Below the pieces are notes generated by a model that ran no database searches, was not told the DNA's origin, and saw only the letters and a list, made by a program, of their open reading frames with translations. The translations under genes were made by a program, and so were the position numbers. From Escherichia coli (GTDB lineage: Bacteria > Pseudomonadota > Gammaproteobacteria > Enterobacterales > Enterobacteriaceae), in assembly GCF_016026235.1 (NCBI RefSeq), contig NZ_CP065613.1: a stretch of DNA of 64,000 bases; one strand, 5' to 3'. Positions 5,896-59,220 of the stretch are shown one piece after another. Within the stretch, counting starts at the first letter, position 1. Each line of letters begins with the position of its first letter.

Positions 5896-6960
5896 ATGAC
5901 CGAACTTAAAAACGATCGTTATCTGCGGGCGCTGCTGCGCCAGCCCGTTGATGTCACTCCAGTATGGATGATGCGCCAGGCGGGTCGCTATCTACCGGAA
6001 TATAAAGCCACGCGCGCCCAGGCAGGCGATTTTATGTCGCTGTGCAAAAACGCCGAGCTGGCGTGCGAAGTGACTTTGCAACCGCTGCGTCGCTACCCGC
6101 TGGATGCGGCGATCCTCTTTTCCGATATCCTCACCGTGCCGGACGCGATGGGGTTAGGGCTCTATTTTGAAGCCGGAGAAGGTCCGCGTTTTACCTCGCC
6201 AGTCACCTGCAAAGCCGACGTCGATAAACTGCCAATTCCGGACCCGGAAGATGAACTGGGTTACGTGATGAACGCGGTGCGTACCATTCGTCGCGAACTG
6301 AAAGGCGAAGTGCCGCTGATTGGTTTTTCCGGCAGCCCGTGGACGCTGGCGACCTACATGGTGGAAGGCGGCAGCAGCAAAGCCTTCACCGTGATCAAAA
6401 AAATGATGTATGCCGATCCGCAGGCGCTGCACGCTCTGCTCGATAAACTGGCGAAAAGCGTCACTTTGTATCTGAATGCGCAGATTAAAGCCGGTGCTCA
6501 GGCAGTGATGATTTTCGACACCTGGGGCGGCGTGCTTACCGGGCGCGATTATCAACAGTTCTCGCTCTATTACATGCATAAAATTGTTGATGGTTTACTG
6601 CGTGAAAACGACGGTCGCCGCGTACCGGTCACGCTGTTTACCAAAGGCGGCGGACAGTGGCTGGAAGCGATGGCGGAAACCGGTTGCGATGCGCTGGGCC
6701 TCGACTGGACAACGGACATCGCCGATGCGCGCCGCCGTGTGGGCAATAAAGTCGCGTTGCAGGGTAATATGGATCCATCGATGCTATACGCGCCGCCAGC
6801 CCGCATTGAAGAAGAAGTCGCGACTATACTTGCAGGTTTCGGTCACGGCGAAGGTCATGTCTTTAACCTTGGTCACGGCATTCATCAGGATGTGCCGCCA
6901 GAACATGCTGGCGTGTTTGTGGAGGCAGTGCATCGACTGTCTGAACAGTATCACCGCTAA
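5896..6960 (+). CDS. hemE: uroporphyrinogen decarboxylase HemE (354 aa)
   Basis: [36 protein letters not shown]... Confidence 0.95.
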
Positions 6961-6961
6961 G

Positions 6962-6989
6962 AGCCTGGTCCATCAGGCTATTTTATTTG
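6962..6989 (+). terminator. rho-independent terminator after hemE
   Basis: Hairpin AGCCTGgtccatCAGGCT followed by ATTTTATTTG. Confidence 0.6.
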
Positions 6990-7115
6990 CCATTTTGAGG
7001 CCGGGCAGTGCTCAAAATCCTCACGTACTACGTGTACGCTCCGGTTTTTCCGCCTGTCCGGCCTCAAACTGCCTTCAACAATTACGCCTGTTGAACCAGG
7101 CTCTAAGGAGCGATT

Positions 7116-7787
7116 ATGGATCTCGCGTCATTACGCGCTCAACAAATCGAACTGGCTTCTTCTGTGATCCGAGAGGATCGACTCGATAAAGATCCACCGG
7201 ATCTGATCGCCGGAGCCGATGTCGGGTTTGAGCAGGGCGGAGAAGTGACGCGAGCGGCGATGGTGCTGCTGAAATACCCCTCGCTTGAGCTGGTGGAGTA
7301 TAAAGTGGCCCGCATCGCCACCACCATGCCTTACATTCCAGGTTTTCTTTCCTTCCGCGAATATCCTGCGCTGCTGGCAGCGTGGGAGATGCTGTCACAA
7401 AAGCCGGATTTAGTGTTTGTCGATGGTCATGGGATCTCGCATCCTCGCCGTCTTGGCGTTGCCAGCCATTTTGGTTTGCTGGTGGATGTGCCGACCATTG
7501 GCGTAGCGAAAAAACGACTATGCGGTAAATTCGAACCGCTCTCCAGCGAACCGGGCGCGCTGGCCCCACTGATGGATAAAGGCGAGCAGCTGGCCTGGGT
7601 CTGGCGCAGCAAAGCGCGCTGTAACCCGTTGTTTATCGCTACCGGCCATCGGGTCAGCGTGGACAGCGCGCTGGCGTGGGTACAACGCTGCATGAAAGGC
7701 TATCGTCTGCCGGAGCCAACGCGCTGGGCGGACGCGGTGGCCTCGGAACGTCCGGCGTTCGTGCGCTATACAGCAAATCAGCCCTAA
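7116..7787 (+). CDS. nfi: endonuclease V (223 aa)
   Basis: [38 protein letters not shown]... Confidence 0.93.
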
Positions 7788-10060: not shown

Positions 10061-10101
10061 CGATGAAACGCTGATATGACGGGTAATCTGGCATGATAAA
10101 C

Positions 10102-10147
10102 GAGTAAAAATGACTCGCCTGCTGCGGGTAGCGAGTCATTTTTACTC
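10102..10147. promoter_or_regulatory. ZraR enhancer: 17-bp perfect inverted repeat between the divergent zraP and zraSR promoters
   Basis: GAGTAAAAATGACTCGC-N12-GCGAGTCATTTTTACTC. Confidence 0.75.
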
Positions 10148-10198
10148 ATTGAAACTTAAGCCTTTGTGTTACAGCGCAGGGTAAGCGCTGATAAAAGA

Positions 10199-15831: not shown

Positions 15832-15938
15832 GGTAAATCCCCTGGATTTGACTATTACAGAGAGCGTTAGCTGAATTTTTCGCGAAAAACTCAGCTAACG
15901 CCCCTAACGGGGCATCTTTATTTTTCGCCCGCATTGTA

Positions 15939-26326: not shown

Positions 26327-26462
26327 CTGTAGGCCGGATAAGGCATTTACGCCGCATCCGGCAATCGGTGCACGATGCCTGATGCGACGCTTGCGCGTCT
26401 TATCATGCCTACAACCGTTGCCGAACGTAGGCTGGATAAGGCGTTTACGCCGCATCCGGCAA
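26327..26462. repeat. BIME: cluster of three REP palindromic units between aceA and aceK
   Basis: Three copies of GCCGGATAAGGCRTTYACGCCGCATCCGGC-type palindromes in alternating orientation. Confidence 0.85.
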
Positions 26463-49406: not shown

Positions 49407-49500
49407 TGCCTGATGCCGCTATGTAGGCCGGATAAGGCGTTCACGCCGCATCCGGCAACCGATGCCTGATGCGACGCGGTCGCGTCTTATCAGGCCTACA
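49407..49500. repeat. REP/BIME cluster downstream of pgi
   Basis: ATGCCTGATGCCGCTATGTAGGCCGGATAAGGCGTTCACGCCGCATCCGGCAA...GCCTGATGCGACGCGGTCGCGTCTTATCAGGCCTAC. Confidence 0.85.
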
Positions 49501-54780: not shown

Positions 54781-56256
54781 TTACAGCGTAGCAGTTTGTT
54801 GTGTTTTCTTCGTTTCCGGTTCCCAGAGGGCTTCCAGCTCCTCAAGGGTTTTACCTTTGGTTTCCGGGACAAATTTCCACATAAATAGTGCTGCCAGAAC
54901 GCCCATACACCCGTAAATCCAGTAGGAGAAACCGTTGTGGAAATGGGTCACCAGCCAGGAGTTTTTGTCCATCATCGGGAAGGTCCAGGAGACGAAGTAG
55001 TTCGCCAGCCACTGGGCCGCCACCGCGATTGCCAGCGCTTTACCACGAATGGCATTCGGGAAGATTTCCGACAGCAGTACCCAGCATACCGGACCCCAGG
55101 ACATGGCAAAGGCGGCAACATAGAACAGCATCGACAGTAGCGCCACAATACCCGGTGCCTGAGTGTAAAACGCGGTACCGAGGCTAAACATACCGATTGC
55201 CATTCCGAGCGCGCCGATAATTTGCAGTGGCTTACGACCAAATTTATCCACCGTCATAATTGCCAGAACGGTGAAGGTGAGGTTGATAACTCCGACAATA
55301 ATGGTCTGCAACAGCGCGATATCCGTGCTGGCCCCCAGCGTTTTGAACACTTCCGGCGCGTAGTACAACACCACATTGATGCCGACAAATTGCTGGAAGA
55401 TGGAGAGCATAACGCCGATTACAATCACGCCCACGCCAAACATCAGCAGACGACCACCGGTTTTGCGGCCATGATCCAGGGAGTGTTTAATTTCCTGTAC
55501 TGCCTGAGTTGCAAGCGTGTTGCCCATAATTTTGCGCAGGATACTTTCCGCCTGTTCTTGCTTGCCGCGTGACATCAGCCAGCGAGGACTTTCTGGCACG
55601 GTATACAGCAGCATTAAGAACAGCAGTGCAGGGATACATTCCGAGGCAAACATATAACGCCAGCCGTCAGTATTCAGCCAGCTGGCATCACCGGAACGGG
55701 CAATAAAATAGTTCACGCAGTAAACTAAAAGTTGCCCGAAAATAATCGCAAACTGGTTAAAAGAGACCAGTTTCCCGCGAATATGAGCAGGAGCAAGTTC
55801 CGCAATATACATTGGTGAAAGCATTGAGGCTAAACCAACGCCAATACCGCCAATAATGCGATAAATAACAAATTCCGGGACATAACCTGCCAGATAAACA
55901 GGCACTGTGTTGTCCGGGTTTATAGAGGTAAAACCAAGTTCTGGCCAGGCAGAACCTACACCAGAAATAAAAAACAGGACAGCAGCAATCTTAAGTGAAT
56001 CACGACGACCGAAGCGGTTACTGCAATAACCACCGAGGGCACCGCCGATGATGCAACCAATCAGAGCGCTGGCTACGCAAAACCCTAACAGGGAGTTGGC
56101 AGCGGATTCACTTAAGTTTTGTGGAGCAACAAAGACGGTATTGAGTGACTCAACAGTACCGGAAATAACGGCGGTGTCGTAGCCAAATAATAAACCACCT
56201 AATGTAGCGACTAAGGTAATCGAAAATATATAACTGGAATTATACTGGGTATTCAT
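54781..56256 (-). CDS. xylE: D-xylose:H+ symporter (MFS, 491 aa)
   Basis: MNTQYNSSYIFSITLVATLGGLLFGYDTAVISGTVESL... Confidence 0.95.
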   Translation of the reverse strand: MNTQYNSSYIFSITLVATLGGLLFGYDTAVISGTVESLNTVFVAPQNLSESAANSLLGFCVASALIGCIIGGALGGYCSNRFGRRDSLKIAAVLFFISGVGSAWPELGFTSINPDNTVPVYLAGYVPEFVIYRIIGGIGVGLASMLSPMYIAELAPAHIRGKLVSFNQFAIIFGQLLVYCVNYFIARSGDASWLNTDGWRYMFASECIPALLFLMLLYTVPESPRWLMSRGKQEQAESILRKIMGNTLATQAVQEIKHSLDHGRKTGGRLLMFGVGVIVIGVMLSIFQQFVGINVVLYYAPEVFKTLGASTDIALLQTIIVGVINLTFTVLAIMTVDKFGRKPLQIIGALGMAIGMFSLGTAFYTQAPGIVALLSMLFYVAAFAMSWGPVCWVLLSEIFPNAIRGKALAIAVAAQWLANYFVSWTFPMMDKNSWLVTHFHNGFSYWIYGCMGVLAALFMWKFVPETKGKTLEELEALWEPETKKTQQTATL

Positions 56257-57532: not shown

Positions 57533-59077
57533 TTAATCAAACTTCATTCGCGTGGCTTTCAGGTTCACTATCGCCAGCGCACCCACCAGCAGGAAGATCA
57601 GCGTGGCAATTGCTGCAGCCAGACCGAAGTCCTGACCCCCGCCGCCTTCAAAAGCGATACGGTAGGTGTAGTTAACAAGCAGGTCGGTATAACCGGCTGG
57701 CGTGGTCGTGCCAAGACGATCCGGGCCGCCGTTGGTTAACAGCTGAATCAGCACGAAGTTGTTAAAGTTAAAGGCGAAGCTGGCGATCATCAGCGGCGTC
57801 AGCGGTTTAATCAGCAGCGGCAGCGTAATCTTAAAGAAGTTCTGGAACGGACCTGCGCCATCCATTGCTGAGGCTTCATACAAATCGTCCGGAATCGCTT
57901 TCAGCAAGCCCATGCAGAGGATCATCATGTACGGATAACCCAGCCAGGTATTGACGATAATTAGCATCGTGCGGGCGGTGGTCGGATCGCTGAACCAGGC
58001 GGGCTTCACGCCAAACAGCGCGCTCAACATCATGTTGATTTCACCGAAGCTCTGGTTAAACAACCCTTTGAAAATCAAGATTGAAATGAATGATGGCACC
58101 GCGTAGGGCAGAATCAGCAGAACGCGATAGACCGCTTTGCCGCGCAATGCTTCCCACTGCACCAGACATGCCAGAACCATGCCGACCGCCACCGTTAAAA
58201 AGACAGTGATCAGCGAGAACACCACGGTCCAGACGAAAATGGCGAGGAACGGTTTCTGAATGCCTTCGTCGGTAAAGACGCGGGTAAAGTTTTTCCAGCC
58301 GGTGGTCACGGTGTAACCGGGGCTTAGCTTTTCATCACCCCAGTTGCCGTCGGCGGTAATGGACTGGTAAAAGCCAATTTGGTTATTCGGACGATATTTC
58401 ACGCCGCTCTGATTATTCGTCAACGTGCCGTCACCGTCGAGTGTGTAGAGCGGCTGCGTGCCAGAAAACTGGCGCAGGGAGCTCATCATCACTTTGTTGC
58501 CATCCGGCAGAATGGCGGTAATGTCACTCAGCGCCTGACGATTCTGGGTAATCACGCGTAGATTTGCGCGTTCGCCTTCGGGCTGGGCGGTCGTTTCTTT
58601 CAGTTGCAGTTTTTGCTCGCCGCCAAATTTAAAAGCGTTGGAGAGGTAATTTTTGCCGGTTTCGCCGTCGCTGAGGGCTAGTTGCCACTCATCGCCCGCC
58701 GGGTAAAGACCAAAATTATAGGTTTTGCCTGCTTGCCAGGAGCGATCTAGCAACACTTCCTGCGCACGTTCAAAAGTCAGCTGGTTAGTGCTGCTGTAGT
58801 TGGTGAAGGCAATGGCGATGGTGCAGACCAGAGGGAAGAGGACGAATAATCCCATTCCAGCCATTCCCGGGTAAACATAGCGCCAGGCGTAGGCTTTACG
58901 ATTGGCGAAAATATACAGCCCCGCTGAACTCAATATCAGCGTGGTAATGGCGAACAGGTATTCCCCTTGTGCGTACATTAAAACAACAAGGTAACCCACC
59001 AGCAGGCCGAGCAGACCTAACACTGACCATTTCAGCGCGTCGCTTTGCCACCAATGTTTCTTTTTAATGACATCCAT
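57533..59077 (-). CDS. malF: maltose ABC transporter permease MalF (514 aa)
   Basis: [40 protein letters not shown]...; ATG 59077. Confidence 0.95.
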
Positions 59078-59096
59078 GGGGTTCTTCCTCATTCCA

Positions 59097-59220
59097 GGAC
59101 GGATAAGGCTTTCACGCCTTATCCGACAACAACTGCCTGATGCGACGCTGACGCGTCTTATCAGGCCTACATACGTTTCGGTTTTGTAGGCCGGACAAGG
59201 CGTTCACGCCGCATCCGGCA
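59097..59220. repeat. REP/BIME cluster in the malE-malF intergenic region
   Basis: GGATAAGGCTTTCACGCCTTATCC ... GCCTGATGCGACGCTGACGCGTCTTATCAGGCCTAC ... GTAGGCCGGACAAGGCGTTCACGCCGCATCCGGC. Confidence 0.9.

What the first reader, a model, noticed from the sequence alone, without database searches (positions are those of the whole stretch)
6994..7068. Long interrupted inverted repeat between hemE and nfi
Downstream of the hemE terminator, TTTGAGGCCGGGCAG (6994..7008) and CTGTCCGGCCTCAAA (7054..7068) form a 15-bp inverted repeat (14/15 complementary) separated by 45 nt that is itself partly palindromic. This could form a large stem-loop in a read-through transcript or act as a protein-binding site; I cannot assign it to a known element class.
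Basis: seen in the sequence. Interest (0 to 1): 0.3.

Follow-up and report, generated by a model that had tools for sequence, protein, structure and literature searches.

The report
Mobile hairpin repeat between hemE and nfi
The inverted repeat is the inner stem of a 143-bp non-coding mobile element (the old E. coli "RSA" repeat family) that inserted between hemE and nfi in about 6% of E. coli strains; the insertion itself is ordinary, but relatives with the same hairpin tip occur in many bacterial phyla.

Summary
In detail: 6994-7008 and 7054-7068 pair 14/15, and the region folds far better than shuffles.

It is not a stand-alone repeat. It is the inner stem of a 143-bp, whole-length palindromic element (6961-7103) inserted at the hemE stop codon.
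- K-12, O157 and about 94% of 5,426 complete E. coli genomes have an empty site (CACCGCTAAGGAGCG) that is 146 bp shorter.
- 305 genomes carry the insertion, flanked by a duplicated TAA (maximally CTAAG).

The element has about 5 copies per genome and 6 in K-12. That matches the "RSA" repeat (150/151 bp, 6 copies), although the RSA sequence itself could not be checked.

It behaves as a miniature transposon: terminal inverted repeats starting GAG, a 3-bp TNA target duplication, no ORF, and presence/absence polymorphism at two or more loci. No transposase partner was found.

The hairpin tip (CCTCACGTAC-N4-5-GTACGCTCC) also recurs in multicopy hairpin elements across many phyla, with lineage-specific arms and a compensatory C-G/U-A variant. 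Rfam's Xanthomonas sRNA sX9 is the right half of one such element.

Any effect on nfi expression is inferred, not shown.

The parts
6958..6960 (+). Left copy of the target-site duplication (TAA), which is also the hemE stop codon. The longest possible direct repeat is CTAAG, 6957-6961.
   Evidence: Filled versus empty site alignment A1. The empty sites in K-12, O157 and TP10-1 read CACCGCTAAGGAGCG.
6961..7103 (+). The inserted element: 143 bp, GAGCC...GGCTC, palindromic over its whole length, no ORF. Orientation is defined by CCTCAC...GCTCC lying on the + strand.
   Evidence: Empty sites are 146 bp shorter. The family alignment covers five E. coli loci. Covariance model R1 hits 6995-7065 at 66.7 bits, the only hit in the window.
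6961..6978 (+). Left terminal inverted repeat, GAGCCTGGTCCATCAGGC.
   Evidence: 16/18 complementary to 7086-7103 (my count from the sequence; one search reports the wider pair I1). In the second filled haplotype (L003) my base count from alignment A1 gives 17/18.
6962..6988 (+). Terminator-like hairpin (AGCCTGG-TCCA-TCAGGCT) followed by ATTTTATTT. This is the 'hemE terminator' of the finding, and it belongs to the element.
   Evidence: Terminator scan. The small hairpin folds at -9.7 kcal/mol. It is absent from empty sites. The motif CAGGCTATTTTAYTTG is conserved in other family copies.
6991..7008 (+). Left arm of the reported inverted repeat (inner stem).
7019..7044 (+). Apex of the hairpin: CCTCACGTAC-TACGT-GTACGCTCC-GG. 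Read on the - strand it is CC-G-GAG-CGUAC-loop-GUACG-UGA-GG.
   Evidence: Invariant in the E. coli copies. The same motif occurs in many phyla. The apical stem shows C-G / U-A compensation.
7054..7071 (+). Right arm of the reported inverted repeat (inner stem).
7086..7103 (+). Right terminal inverted repeat, GCCTGTTGAACCAGGCTC.
   Evidence: On the - strand it forms a weaker terminator-like hairpin.
7104..7106 (+). Right copy of the target-site duplication (TAA). It restores the nfi Shine-Dalgarno context TAAGGAG (7104-7110) ahead of the ATG at 7116.
   Evidence: Alignment A1; ORF list; annotation of the identical strain.

Best explanation
The repeat is the inner stem of a non-autonomous mobile element, a MITE of the E. 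coli 'RSA' repeat family, which inserted into the TAA that serves as the hemE stop codon and as the start of the nfi ribosome-binding site.

Shown:
- Insertion duplicated the 3-bp target. hemE therefore keeps its stop codon and nfi keeps its Shine-Dalgarno sequence, but the two genes are now 155 nt apart instead of 9.
- The element is selfish DNA. It was not built for this locus and is missing here in most E. coli.

Inferred:
- Mobilisation is most likely by a transposase supplied in trans that makes 3-bp staggered cuts at TNA. The termini (GAG...CTC) and the TNA duplication fit what I recall of the IS1031 group of the IS5 family, the bacterial counterpart of Tourist/PIF-Harbinger MITEs. No partner was identified.
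- Local consequence: read-through hemE mRNA now carries a hairpin of -65 to -70 kcal/mol whose first module looks like an intrinsic terminator. nfi is therefore probably expressed somewhat less, or from processed transcripts, in carrier strains.
- The nearly invariant hairpin tip suggests a conserved recognition step by an unknown factor.
For: Insertion:
- The empty site is 146 bp shorter in K-12, O157 and TP10-1, and the filled site is flanked by a duplicated TAA/CTAAG.
- 305 of 5,426 genomes are filled, in two haplotypes at 99.5% and 97.1% identity to the window.

Repeat family:
- Median 5 places per genome.
- Homologous copies lie at ucpA-cysP, ycbX-rlmL, pheM-pheS and qseE-qseG.
- K-12 strains have 6 places. 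The original K-12 record lists RSA as 150/151 bp with 6 occurrences (PMC5172473, Table 1).

A second polymorphic locus:
- ucpA-cysP is filled in 1,387 genomes. There is a clean empty allele 146 bp shorter, and another empty allele that keeps a 13-nt remnant.

Target duplication:
- Among 221 distinct copies from many taxa, 19 have intact terminal repeats plus identical TNA flanks, against 2-5 in shifted controls. Every other 3-mer class scores 3 or fewer.
- In Syntrophus, by my reading of the flanks printed, the two flanks match each other and vary between copies (TAA/TAA or TTA/TTA).

Other:
- No ORF and no promoter-like site on the + strand; a terminator-like site at 6962-6988.
- Strong folding.
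Against: - No autonomous element or transposase sharing these termini was found.
- The link to IS5/IS1031 rests on my memory of ISfinder's family table and could not be verified.
- Identity with 'RSA' is circumstantial (copy number and length). The RSA consensus was not available, and NC_000913.3 does not annotate it.
- At this locus alone, a 5-bp duplication (CTAAG) cannot be distinguished from TAA plus G...C termini.
- Only about 9% of copies retain clean ends and duplications.
- A hairpin tip conserved across phyla is not expected for an ordinary deletion-derived MITE, and it remains unexplained.
- No expression data were available, so every effect on hemE or nfi is inference.
Confidence: 0.85

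Rival explanations
1. A dedicated cis-regulatory RNA structure (attenuator, terminator or mRNA stabiliser) that evolved to control hemE-nfi expression.
For: The + strand RNA folds at -65 to -70 kcal/mol, with a terminator-like hairpin and U-run directly after the hemE stop.
Against: It is absent from this site in about 94% of E. coli, where the genes are 9 bp apart with the Shine-Dalgarno sequence overlapping the stop codon. The same sequence sits at unrelated loci and on plasmids. Across taxa, copies show no sense/antisense preference relative to neighbouring genes: 29 against 21.
Confidence: 0.08
2. The element encodes, or is processed into, a small RNA like Xanthomonas sX9, and that RNA is its function.
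For: Rfam sX9 (RF02228) matches the right half of a family member at 98.5 bits against a gathering score of 44 (L164). It matches the E. coli copy weakly: 22 bits at 7023-7073. sX1-15 were confirmed by northern blot in Xanthomonas (PMC3300014).
Against: The E. coli match is far below threshold. No promoter-like site was found on the + strand. Copies occur in both orientations relative to genes. Multicopy spread with target duplications is explained by mobility without any RNA function. An sRNA seen on a northern blot may be a stable processing product of a transcribed hairpin.
Confidence: 0.15
3. A single-strand (HUH/Y1 transposase) element similar to REP/REPIN or IS200/IS605 derivatives. It would be recognised as a folded hairpin, with the flanking TAA serving as a cleavage or target site rather than a true duplication.
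For: There are small hairpins at both ends, which are both direct and inverted repeats of each other (D1 and I1). There is strong strand asymmetry: the - strand folds better in 93 of 116 copies, and isolated mismatches are pyrimidine-pyrimidine on the + strand 276 times against 33. The tip hairpin is conserved with a compensatory change, which is typical of structure-specific recognition.
Against: By my reading of the flanks, the two flanks match each other and vary between copies (TAA/TAA, TTA/TTA), and adds TCA and TGA pairs; this is what a real duplication of a variable target gives. No RAYT- or TnpA-like gene recurs near copies. The copies are related, so the asymmetry statistics are not independent.
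Confidence: 0.1
4. A double-stranded DNA binding site for a regulator or nucleoid protein acting on hemE-nfi.
For: The region is palindromic, and the tip motif is highly conserved.
Against: The tip loop varies between 4 and 5 nt (6 in some copies), which fits a hairpin loop and not a fixed-spacing dimer site. The apical stem covaries. The site is absent in most strains. Conservation across phyla rules out an enterobacterial regulator.
Confidence: 0.05

Closest known systems
RSA repeats of E. coli (Bachellier & Hofnung; also published as 'BEE95')
   Same: About 150 bp, intergenic, long palindrome, 6 copies in K-12 (compared with PMC5172473 Table 1). The name and the synonym come from a reference cited in PMC3751351.
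   Different: Identity was not verified by sequence. The hemE-nfi copy is an additional, strain-polymorphic insertion that K-12 lacks. It has an unusually perfect inner stem: 11/12 by my count, against 9/12 in the other E. coli copies. I know of no description of RSA as a MITE with a TNA duplication, but the relevant papers were not in the library.
Xanthomonas sRNA sX9 (Rfam RF02228)
   Same: sX9 corresponds to the right half of a family member, from the tip hairpin to the right terminus. That member is flanked TAA|GAGCG...AGCTC|TAA, the same layout as the E. coli element.
   Different: The E. coli copy scores only 22 bits against a gathering score of 44. sX9 is filed as an sRNA gene, not as part of a mobile repeat. 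Whether the E. coli copy yields an RNA is unknown.
Tourist-like MITEs / PIF-Harbinger, and the bacterial IS5 family (IS1031 group)
   Same: 3-bp A/T-rich target duplication (TWA/TNA), short terminal inverted repeats, small size, and clean empty sites. Precise excision is documented for the Tourist MITE mPing (PMC4561436, listed).
   Different: No partner transposase was found. The 'GAG ends, 3-bp duplication' rule for IS1031 is recalled, not tested. Ordinary MITEs do not keep an internal motif conserved across phyla.
ERIC/IRU and REP/BIME elements of enterobacteria
   Same: Dispersed intergenic palindromes, transcribed as parts of mRNAs, that can form hairpins.
   Different: No sequence similarity. 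The ERIC2 primer sequence and a REP consensus, both recalled from memory, were searched in the window: ERIC gave 0 matches, and REP matched only at 26329, 26427, 49423 and 59186.
REPINs (REP doublets mobilised by RAYT transposases)
   Same: A symmetric long hairpin of about 100-140 nt built from two inverted halves, multicopy, with strand-asymmetric imperfections.
   Different: The duplicated flanks covary. No RAYT gene lies nearby. Here the centre is the most conserved part, whereas in a REPIN the centre is the least conserved (recalled).

Membership tests
RSA repeat family (E. coli) | About 150-bp unit present in 6 copies in K-12 | tested here: met
   K-12 MG1655, C600 and J53 records each hold 6 places. 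The unit is 141-144 bp plus its duplication. PMC5172473 Table 1 lists RSA as 150/151 bp with 6 occurrences.
RSA repeat family (E. coli) | Sequence identity to the published RSA consensus or to annotated RSA coordinates | not testable with these tools
   NC_000913.3 carries no RSA features at ucpA-cysP or hemE-nfi. The primary papers are not in the library.
MITE (miniature inverted-repeat transposable element) | Terminal inverted repeats | tested here: met
   6961-6978 against 7086-7103 is 16/18; haplotype L003 is 17/18 (my counts; one search reports the wider pair I1).
MITE (miniature inverted-repeat transposable element) | Target-site duplication shown by filled versus empty sites | tested here: met
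   TAA (maximally CTAAG) is duplicated, and empty alleles carry a single copy. Across taxa, TNA flanks are enriched: 19 against 2-5 in controls.
MITE (miniature inverted-repeat transposable element) | Small, non-coding, multicopy, with insertion polymorphism | tested here: met
   143 bp with no ORF. Median 5 copies per genome. Polymorphic at hemE-nfi (305 of 5,426 genomes) and at ucpA-cysP (1,387 of 5,426).
MITE (miniature inverted-repeat transposable element) | An autonomous element with matching ends that supplies the transposase | tested here: not met
   No recurrent neighbouring gene. No distant matching ends or split half-sites in about 2 Mb of fetched loci. The search covered only DNA near copies, not whole genomes.
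IS5 family, IS1031 group derivative | 3-bp duplication (TNA) and ends starting GAG (recalled from ISfinder) | tested here: inconclusive
   The features are present in proteobacterial copies: GAGCC, GAGCG, GAGGC and GAGGG ends with TAA, TTA or TCA flanks. The defining rule could not be checked, and other lineages have different ends.
Rfam sX9 (RF02228) | Score at or above the gathering threshold (44 bits) | tested here: not met
   The window copy scores 22 bits at 7023-7073. A metagenomic relative scores 98.5 bits, so the homology is real but the E. coli copy lies outside the model's scope.
Intrinsic terminator of hemE | GC-rich hairpin plus U-run belonging to the gene's native 3' end | tested here: not met
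   The hairpin and T-run exist but lie inside the insertion and are absent from empty alleles.
REP/BIME and ERIC/IRU | Match to the family consensus | tested here: not met
   No match at the site. The consensus sequences were recalled from memory.
REPIN / HUH-mobilised hairpin | Fixed flanking cleavage motif rather than a covarying duplication, plus an associated RAYT/TnpA gene | tested here: not met
   Flanks covary (TAA/TAA, TTA/TTA, TCA/TCA). No associated gene was found.

The most novel reading that the evidence does not exclude
E. coli RSA and Xanthomonas sX9 are members of one pan-bacterial superfamily of TNA-duplicating hairpin MITEs. It is found in Proteobacteria (alpha to delta), Chlorobi, Firmicutes, Planctomycetes, Nitrospirae and Bacteroidetes.

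The arms and termini have diverged to match each host. The hairpin tip, CC-G-GAG-CGUAC-loop-GUACG-UGA-GG on the purine-rich strand, has stayed almost invariant, and its closing pair switches only between C-G and U-A. That implies selection for recognition of a folded single strand (DNA or RNA) by a conserved, still unidentified partner, and possibly a mobilisation mechanism that reads the hairpin rather than the terminal repeats.
Probability: 0.4. Interest if true: 0.7.

Novelty: new member of a known kind. Interest (0 to 1): 0.4.

Why it matters
Locally, it shows that the hemE-nfi 'intergenic region' of this strain is a strain-specific insertion. The insertion separates two genes that sit 9 bp apart in K-12, in what looks like an operon, and places a terminator-like hairpin in front of the endonuclease V gene in about 6% of E. 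coli. That is a testable source of natural variation in deaminated-base repair.

More generally, the filled/empty pairs give direct evidence that the little-studied RSA repeats are, or recently were, mobile. They define the ends and target of the element. They also tie RSA to an Rfam 'sRNA' family and to hairpin elements in distant phyla, so the conserved tip gives a concrete handle for finding whatever moves or binds these elements.

Tried and rejected
- Rfam on the window copy gave only chance-level hits (mir-584, mir-310) and a weak sX9 hit. I kept sX9 as a lead, and it was later confirmed on a relative.
- REP and ERIC identity was rejected.
- A native hemE terminator was rejected, because the hairpin is absent from empty alleles.
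- The search for an autonomous partner found nothing. Clustering of 827 neighbouring ORFs gave no recurrent family. Searches for terminal-repeat k-mers and for split half-sites turned up only random matches or internal variants.
- An HUH / single-strand transposition model was considered because of the strand asymmetry, but downgraded because the flanking triplets covary.
- A promoter inside the element driving nfi was not found on the + strand.
- Literature: the RSA/BEE95 primary papers, the ISfinder family table and the hemE-nfi co-transcription data could not be retrieved.
- My first automated duplication scan over-extended the repeats into the palindromic target and was uninformative. The stricter version gave total counts no higher than controls. 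Only the class-resolved version is used.
- A first structure string for the pair count was off by one column and was corrected.
- The inverted repeat at 55987-56119 was checked as a possible ERIC and showed no ERIC-like sequence.

Full report
**1. Observation**

They pair 14/15, with a G.T as the only exception, and are separated by 45 nt. The repeat finder extends them to 18 nt (6991-7008 / 7054-7071) and reports a second, outer pair at 6950-6978 / 7086-7114.

Only 12 inverted repeats of at least 15 nt within 160 nt of each other exist in the whole 64-kb window, and two of them are these nested pairs. The 81-nt core folds at -40.3 kcal/mol (z = -7.9). The full 141-nt palindrome folds at -65.2 kcal/mol on the + strand and -74.3 kcal/mol on the - strand (z = -8 to -9).

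**2. What it is: an insertion**

The window is E. coli. It is 100% identical over 901 bp to strain FDAARGOS_943, with nudC-hemE-nfi-yjaG-hupA annotated there.

In nearly all other complete E. coli genomes the same 901 bp aligns in two pieces spanning 755 bp. In K-12 MG1655, hemE ends at 4198780 and nfi starts at 4198790.

Aligning filled and empty alleles:
- Empty: ...CAC CGC TAA GGAGCGATT ATG...
- Filled: ...CGC TAA | GAGCCTGG...CCAGGCTC | TAA GGAGCGATT ATG...

The insertion is 146 bp. The longest direct repeat at its edges is CTAAG. Because the target is nearly palindromic, this locus alone cannot separate a 5-bp duplication from a 3-bp TAA duplication plus G...C termini.

The left TAA copy is the hemE stop codon. 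The right copy restores the nfi Shine-Dalgarno context.

A junction-spanning query finds the filled allele in 305 of 5,426 genomes. They fall into two haplotypes, 78 at 99% identity or more and 227 at about 97%. In the commoner haplotype the terminal repeats are almost perfect, 17/18 by my count from the alignment. The window copy carries two substitutions in the right repeat and a 1-nt deletion (206 against 207 bp).

**3. A repeat family**

The 155-nt intergenic sequence matches a median of 5 places per E. coli genome, range 1-9. Other copies lie at:
- ucpA-cysP
- ycbX-rlmL
- between the pheM leader and pheS
- 4 nt after the qseE stop

. These align over the whole element, and the centre is the most conserved part.

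K-12 strains hold exactly 6 places. The original K-12 GenBank record listed 6 'RSA' repeats of 150/151 bp (PMC5172473 Table 1). RSA is also the name Bachellier and Hofnung gave to the 'BEE95' elements (a reference cited in PMC3751351). I therefore file the element as RSA, on copy number and length. The consensus itself was not available, and NC_000913.3 does not annotate RSA.

The element does not match a REP or an ERIC consensus recalled from memory.

**4. Evidence for mobility and the target**

The ucpA-cysP copy is also polymorphic. It is filled in 1,387 genomes. One empty allele is again exactly 146 bp shorter, and a third allele retains a 13-nt remnant resembling the outermost repeat.

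A Citrobacter copy is flanked TTA|GAGCC...GGCTC|TTA, and its first G completes a TAG stop codon for the upstream ORF.

Among 221 distinct copies from genomes and metagenomes, 19 have terminal repeats of at least 8/10 plus identical flanking triplets of the form TNA (TAA, TTA, TCA, TGA). Shifted controls give 2-5, and every other triplet class gives 3 or fewer. In Syntrophus, by my reading of the flanks printed, the two flanks match each other and differ between copies (TAA/TAA or TTA/TTA), as expected for a true duplication.

Proteobacterial copies begin GAG and end CTC.

Small size, no ORF, terminal repeats, target duplication, multiple copies and insertion polymorphism together make this a MITE. 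A 3-bp TNA duplication with GAG ends matches what I recall of the IS1031 group of the IS5 family, and it parallels Tourist/PIF-Harbinger MITEs. I could not verify that rule.

I found no autonomous partner. Copies also sit on plasmids of Pantoea, Klebsiella, Citrobacter and Salmonella, and in prophage-like contigs.

**5. Unexpected breadth**

The taxa were:
- Enterobacterales, Aeromonas, Pseudomonas and Microbulbifer
- Burkholderiales
- Agrobacterium, Devosia and a Rickettsiaceae MAG
- Myxococcales, Syntrophus, Desulfobacterales and Oligoflexia
- Chlorobium
- Clostridia, Bacillus and Eubacteriaceae
- Scalindua
- Nitrospirales
- Rikenellaceae

Copies are usually multicopy within a genome. In every lineage the motif sits at the tip of a 120-145-nt rod-like hairpin whose arms are lineage-specific and follow the host's base composition. 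Contamination is therefore unlikely.

Support for the structure:
- The helix next to the tip covaries.
- On an ungapped alignment of 64 copies, the covariation score is 0.255 against 0.126 in shuffles (0 of 500 as high) and 0.09-0.21 for slid partners.
- Because my pattern fixed the tip, I built a covariance model. It recovered extra copies in which the closing pair of the apical stem has changed from C-G to U-A, or in which the stem has gained a compensated pair.
- In 1.9 Mb of fetched DNA only the C..G (123) and T..A (127) combinations occur, and no single-sided variant.

The structure is strand-asymmetric:
- The strand reading GGAGCGUAC...GUACGUGAGG folds better in 93 of 116 copies.
- Isolated mismatches are pyrimidine-pyrimidine on the other strand 276 times against 33. 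On the purine-rich strand these could form a G.U pair and tandem G.A pairs around one bulged G.
- The copies are related, so these statistics are not independent.

Copies show no sense/antisense bias relative to flanking ORFs (29 against 21). They avoid divergent promoter regions: 3, against 23 in convergent regions.

**6. Link to an Rfam family**

The only Rfam family that repeatedly approached threshold was Xanthomonas sRNA sX9: 22 bits on the window copy and 33 bits on a Chlorobiaceae copy.

A metagenomic copy with the U-A tip, flanked TAA|GAGCG...AGCTC|TAA, matches sX9 end to end at 98.5 bits against a gathering score of 44. sX9 is therefore the right half, from tip to right terminus, of a member of this superfamily. 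That explains why sX9 ranks among the most prevalent 'sRNAs' in bacterial genomes (PMC9029176).

**7. How it most likely works here**

Shown:
- The sequence is an insertion of a multicopy palindromic element with a duplicated target.
- Both ORFs and the nfi ribosome-binding site are preserved.

Inferred:
- The element was mobilised in trans by a DDE transposase cutting TNA with a 3-nt stagger.
- It is selfish and near-neutral at this site.
- In the hemE-nfi transcript it adds a very stable hairpin whose first module (6962-6988) resembles an intrinsic terminator. No promoter-like site lies on the + strand. nfi expression in carriers is therefore probably reduced, or depends on read-through or processing. 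By analogy with sX9, a stable right-arm fragment may accumulate.

None of this could be tested with sequence tools. Co-transcription of hemE and nfi in K-12 is my recollection plus the 9-bp spacing, not a retrieved result.

**8. Verdict**

The finding is real but ordinary in kind. It is a strain-polymorphic copy of a known, poorly studied enterobacterial repeat, here shown to have MITE anatomy.

The most novel reading not excluded is that RSA and sX9 belong to a pan-bacterial hairpin-MITE superfamily whose tip is kept by selection for an unknown partner. The family and the conservation are well supported. Whether this has already been described elsewhere, and what recognises the tip, remain open.

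Noticed in passing
L012:215-545 (K-12 ucpA-cysP), L157, L158: The RSA copy between ucpA and cysP is also polymorphic in E. coli. It is filled in 1,387 of 5,426 genomes. One empty allele is exactly 146 bp shorter. Another keeps a 13-nt remnant (TTTTAAACCCGGT) resembling the element's outermost repeat, which suggests hairpin-mediated deletion or imprecise excision.
   Followed up: partly
L079:4400-8600 (uncultured Clostridia MAG): At least 8 copies or fragments of the hairpin element, in both orientations, lie in short spacers between small ORFs. By eye these ORFs look like a ribosomal-protein operon, but I did not annotate them.
   Followed up: partly
L084:7640-7700; also L089, L093, L105, L110, L127, L131: Some enterobacterial copies carry an extra ~57-nt module (…TTTGAACGCCCCTGGGCGGCCCGTAAGGGTGAGCGTAGCGAATC) inserted right next to the tip, on either side and in either orientation. 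Its origin is unknown. GGGTGAGCG recalls the ERIC core, from memory.
   Followed up: no
L044:3380-3525, L044:12240-12360, L043:2630-2770, L045:8430-8575: Chlorobium carries shorter elements with the same termini (GGGCACCTCTA...) in which the conserved tip is replaced by an unrelated short centre. The tip is therefore not present in all relatives.
   Followed up: partly
L007:1501-1642 and L008:1501-1633: One E. coli RSA copy lies inside the pheST leader, between the pheM attenuator ('Phe leader region') and the pheS start codon. Its purine-rich strand is the one in the mRNA.
   Followed up: no
window 7050-7054: The window's copy lacks one base (CCGC-CTG against CCGCGCTG) compared with the other filled hemE-nfi alleles listed, which all span 207 bp in their records against 206 bp in the window.
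   Followed up: yes
window 26329-26362, 26427-26460, 49423-49456, 59186-59219: Four classical REP (PU) sequences on the - strand, 0-1 mismatch to a consensus recalled from memory.
   Followed up: no
window 10099-10150: A 20-nt inverted repeat (95%, 12-nt spacer) in the zraP-zraS intergenic region. From memory it matches the known ZraR binding sites.
   Followed up: no
window 15864-15901: A 38-bp near-perfect palindrome (19-nt arms, no spacer), about 33-70 bp upstream of the purH start codon. Not identified.
   Followed up: no
window ~57537-59080 (NZ_CP065615.1 3323202-3324745): malF is annotated as a frameshifted pseudogene in FDAARGOS_943, the best-matching strain (100% identical over the 901 bp compared). 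I did not check whether the frameshift is present in the window, or whether it is real or a sequencing error.
   Followed up: no
L092:1-516 (Bacillus sp. REN16): One copy of the tip motif lies in an rRNA operon spacer, downstream of the 16S 3' end and two tRNA genes.
   Followed up: no
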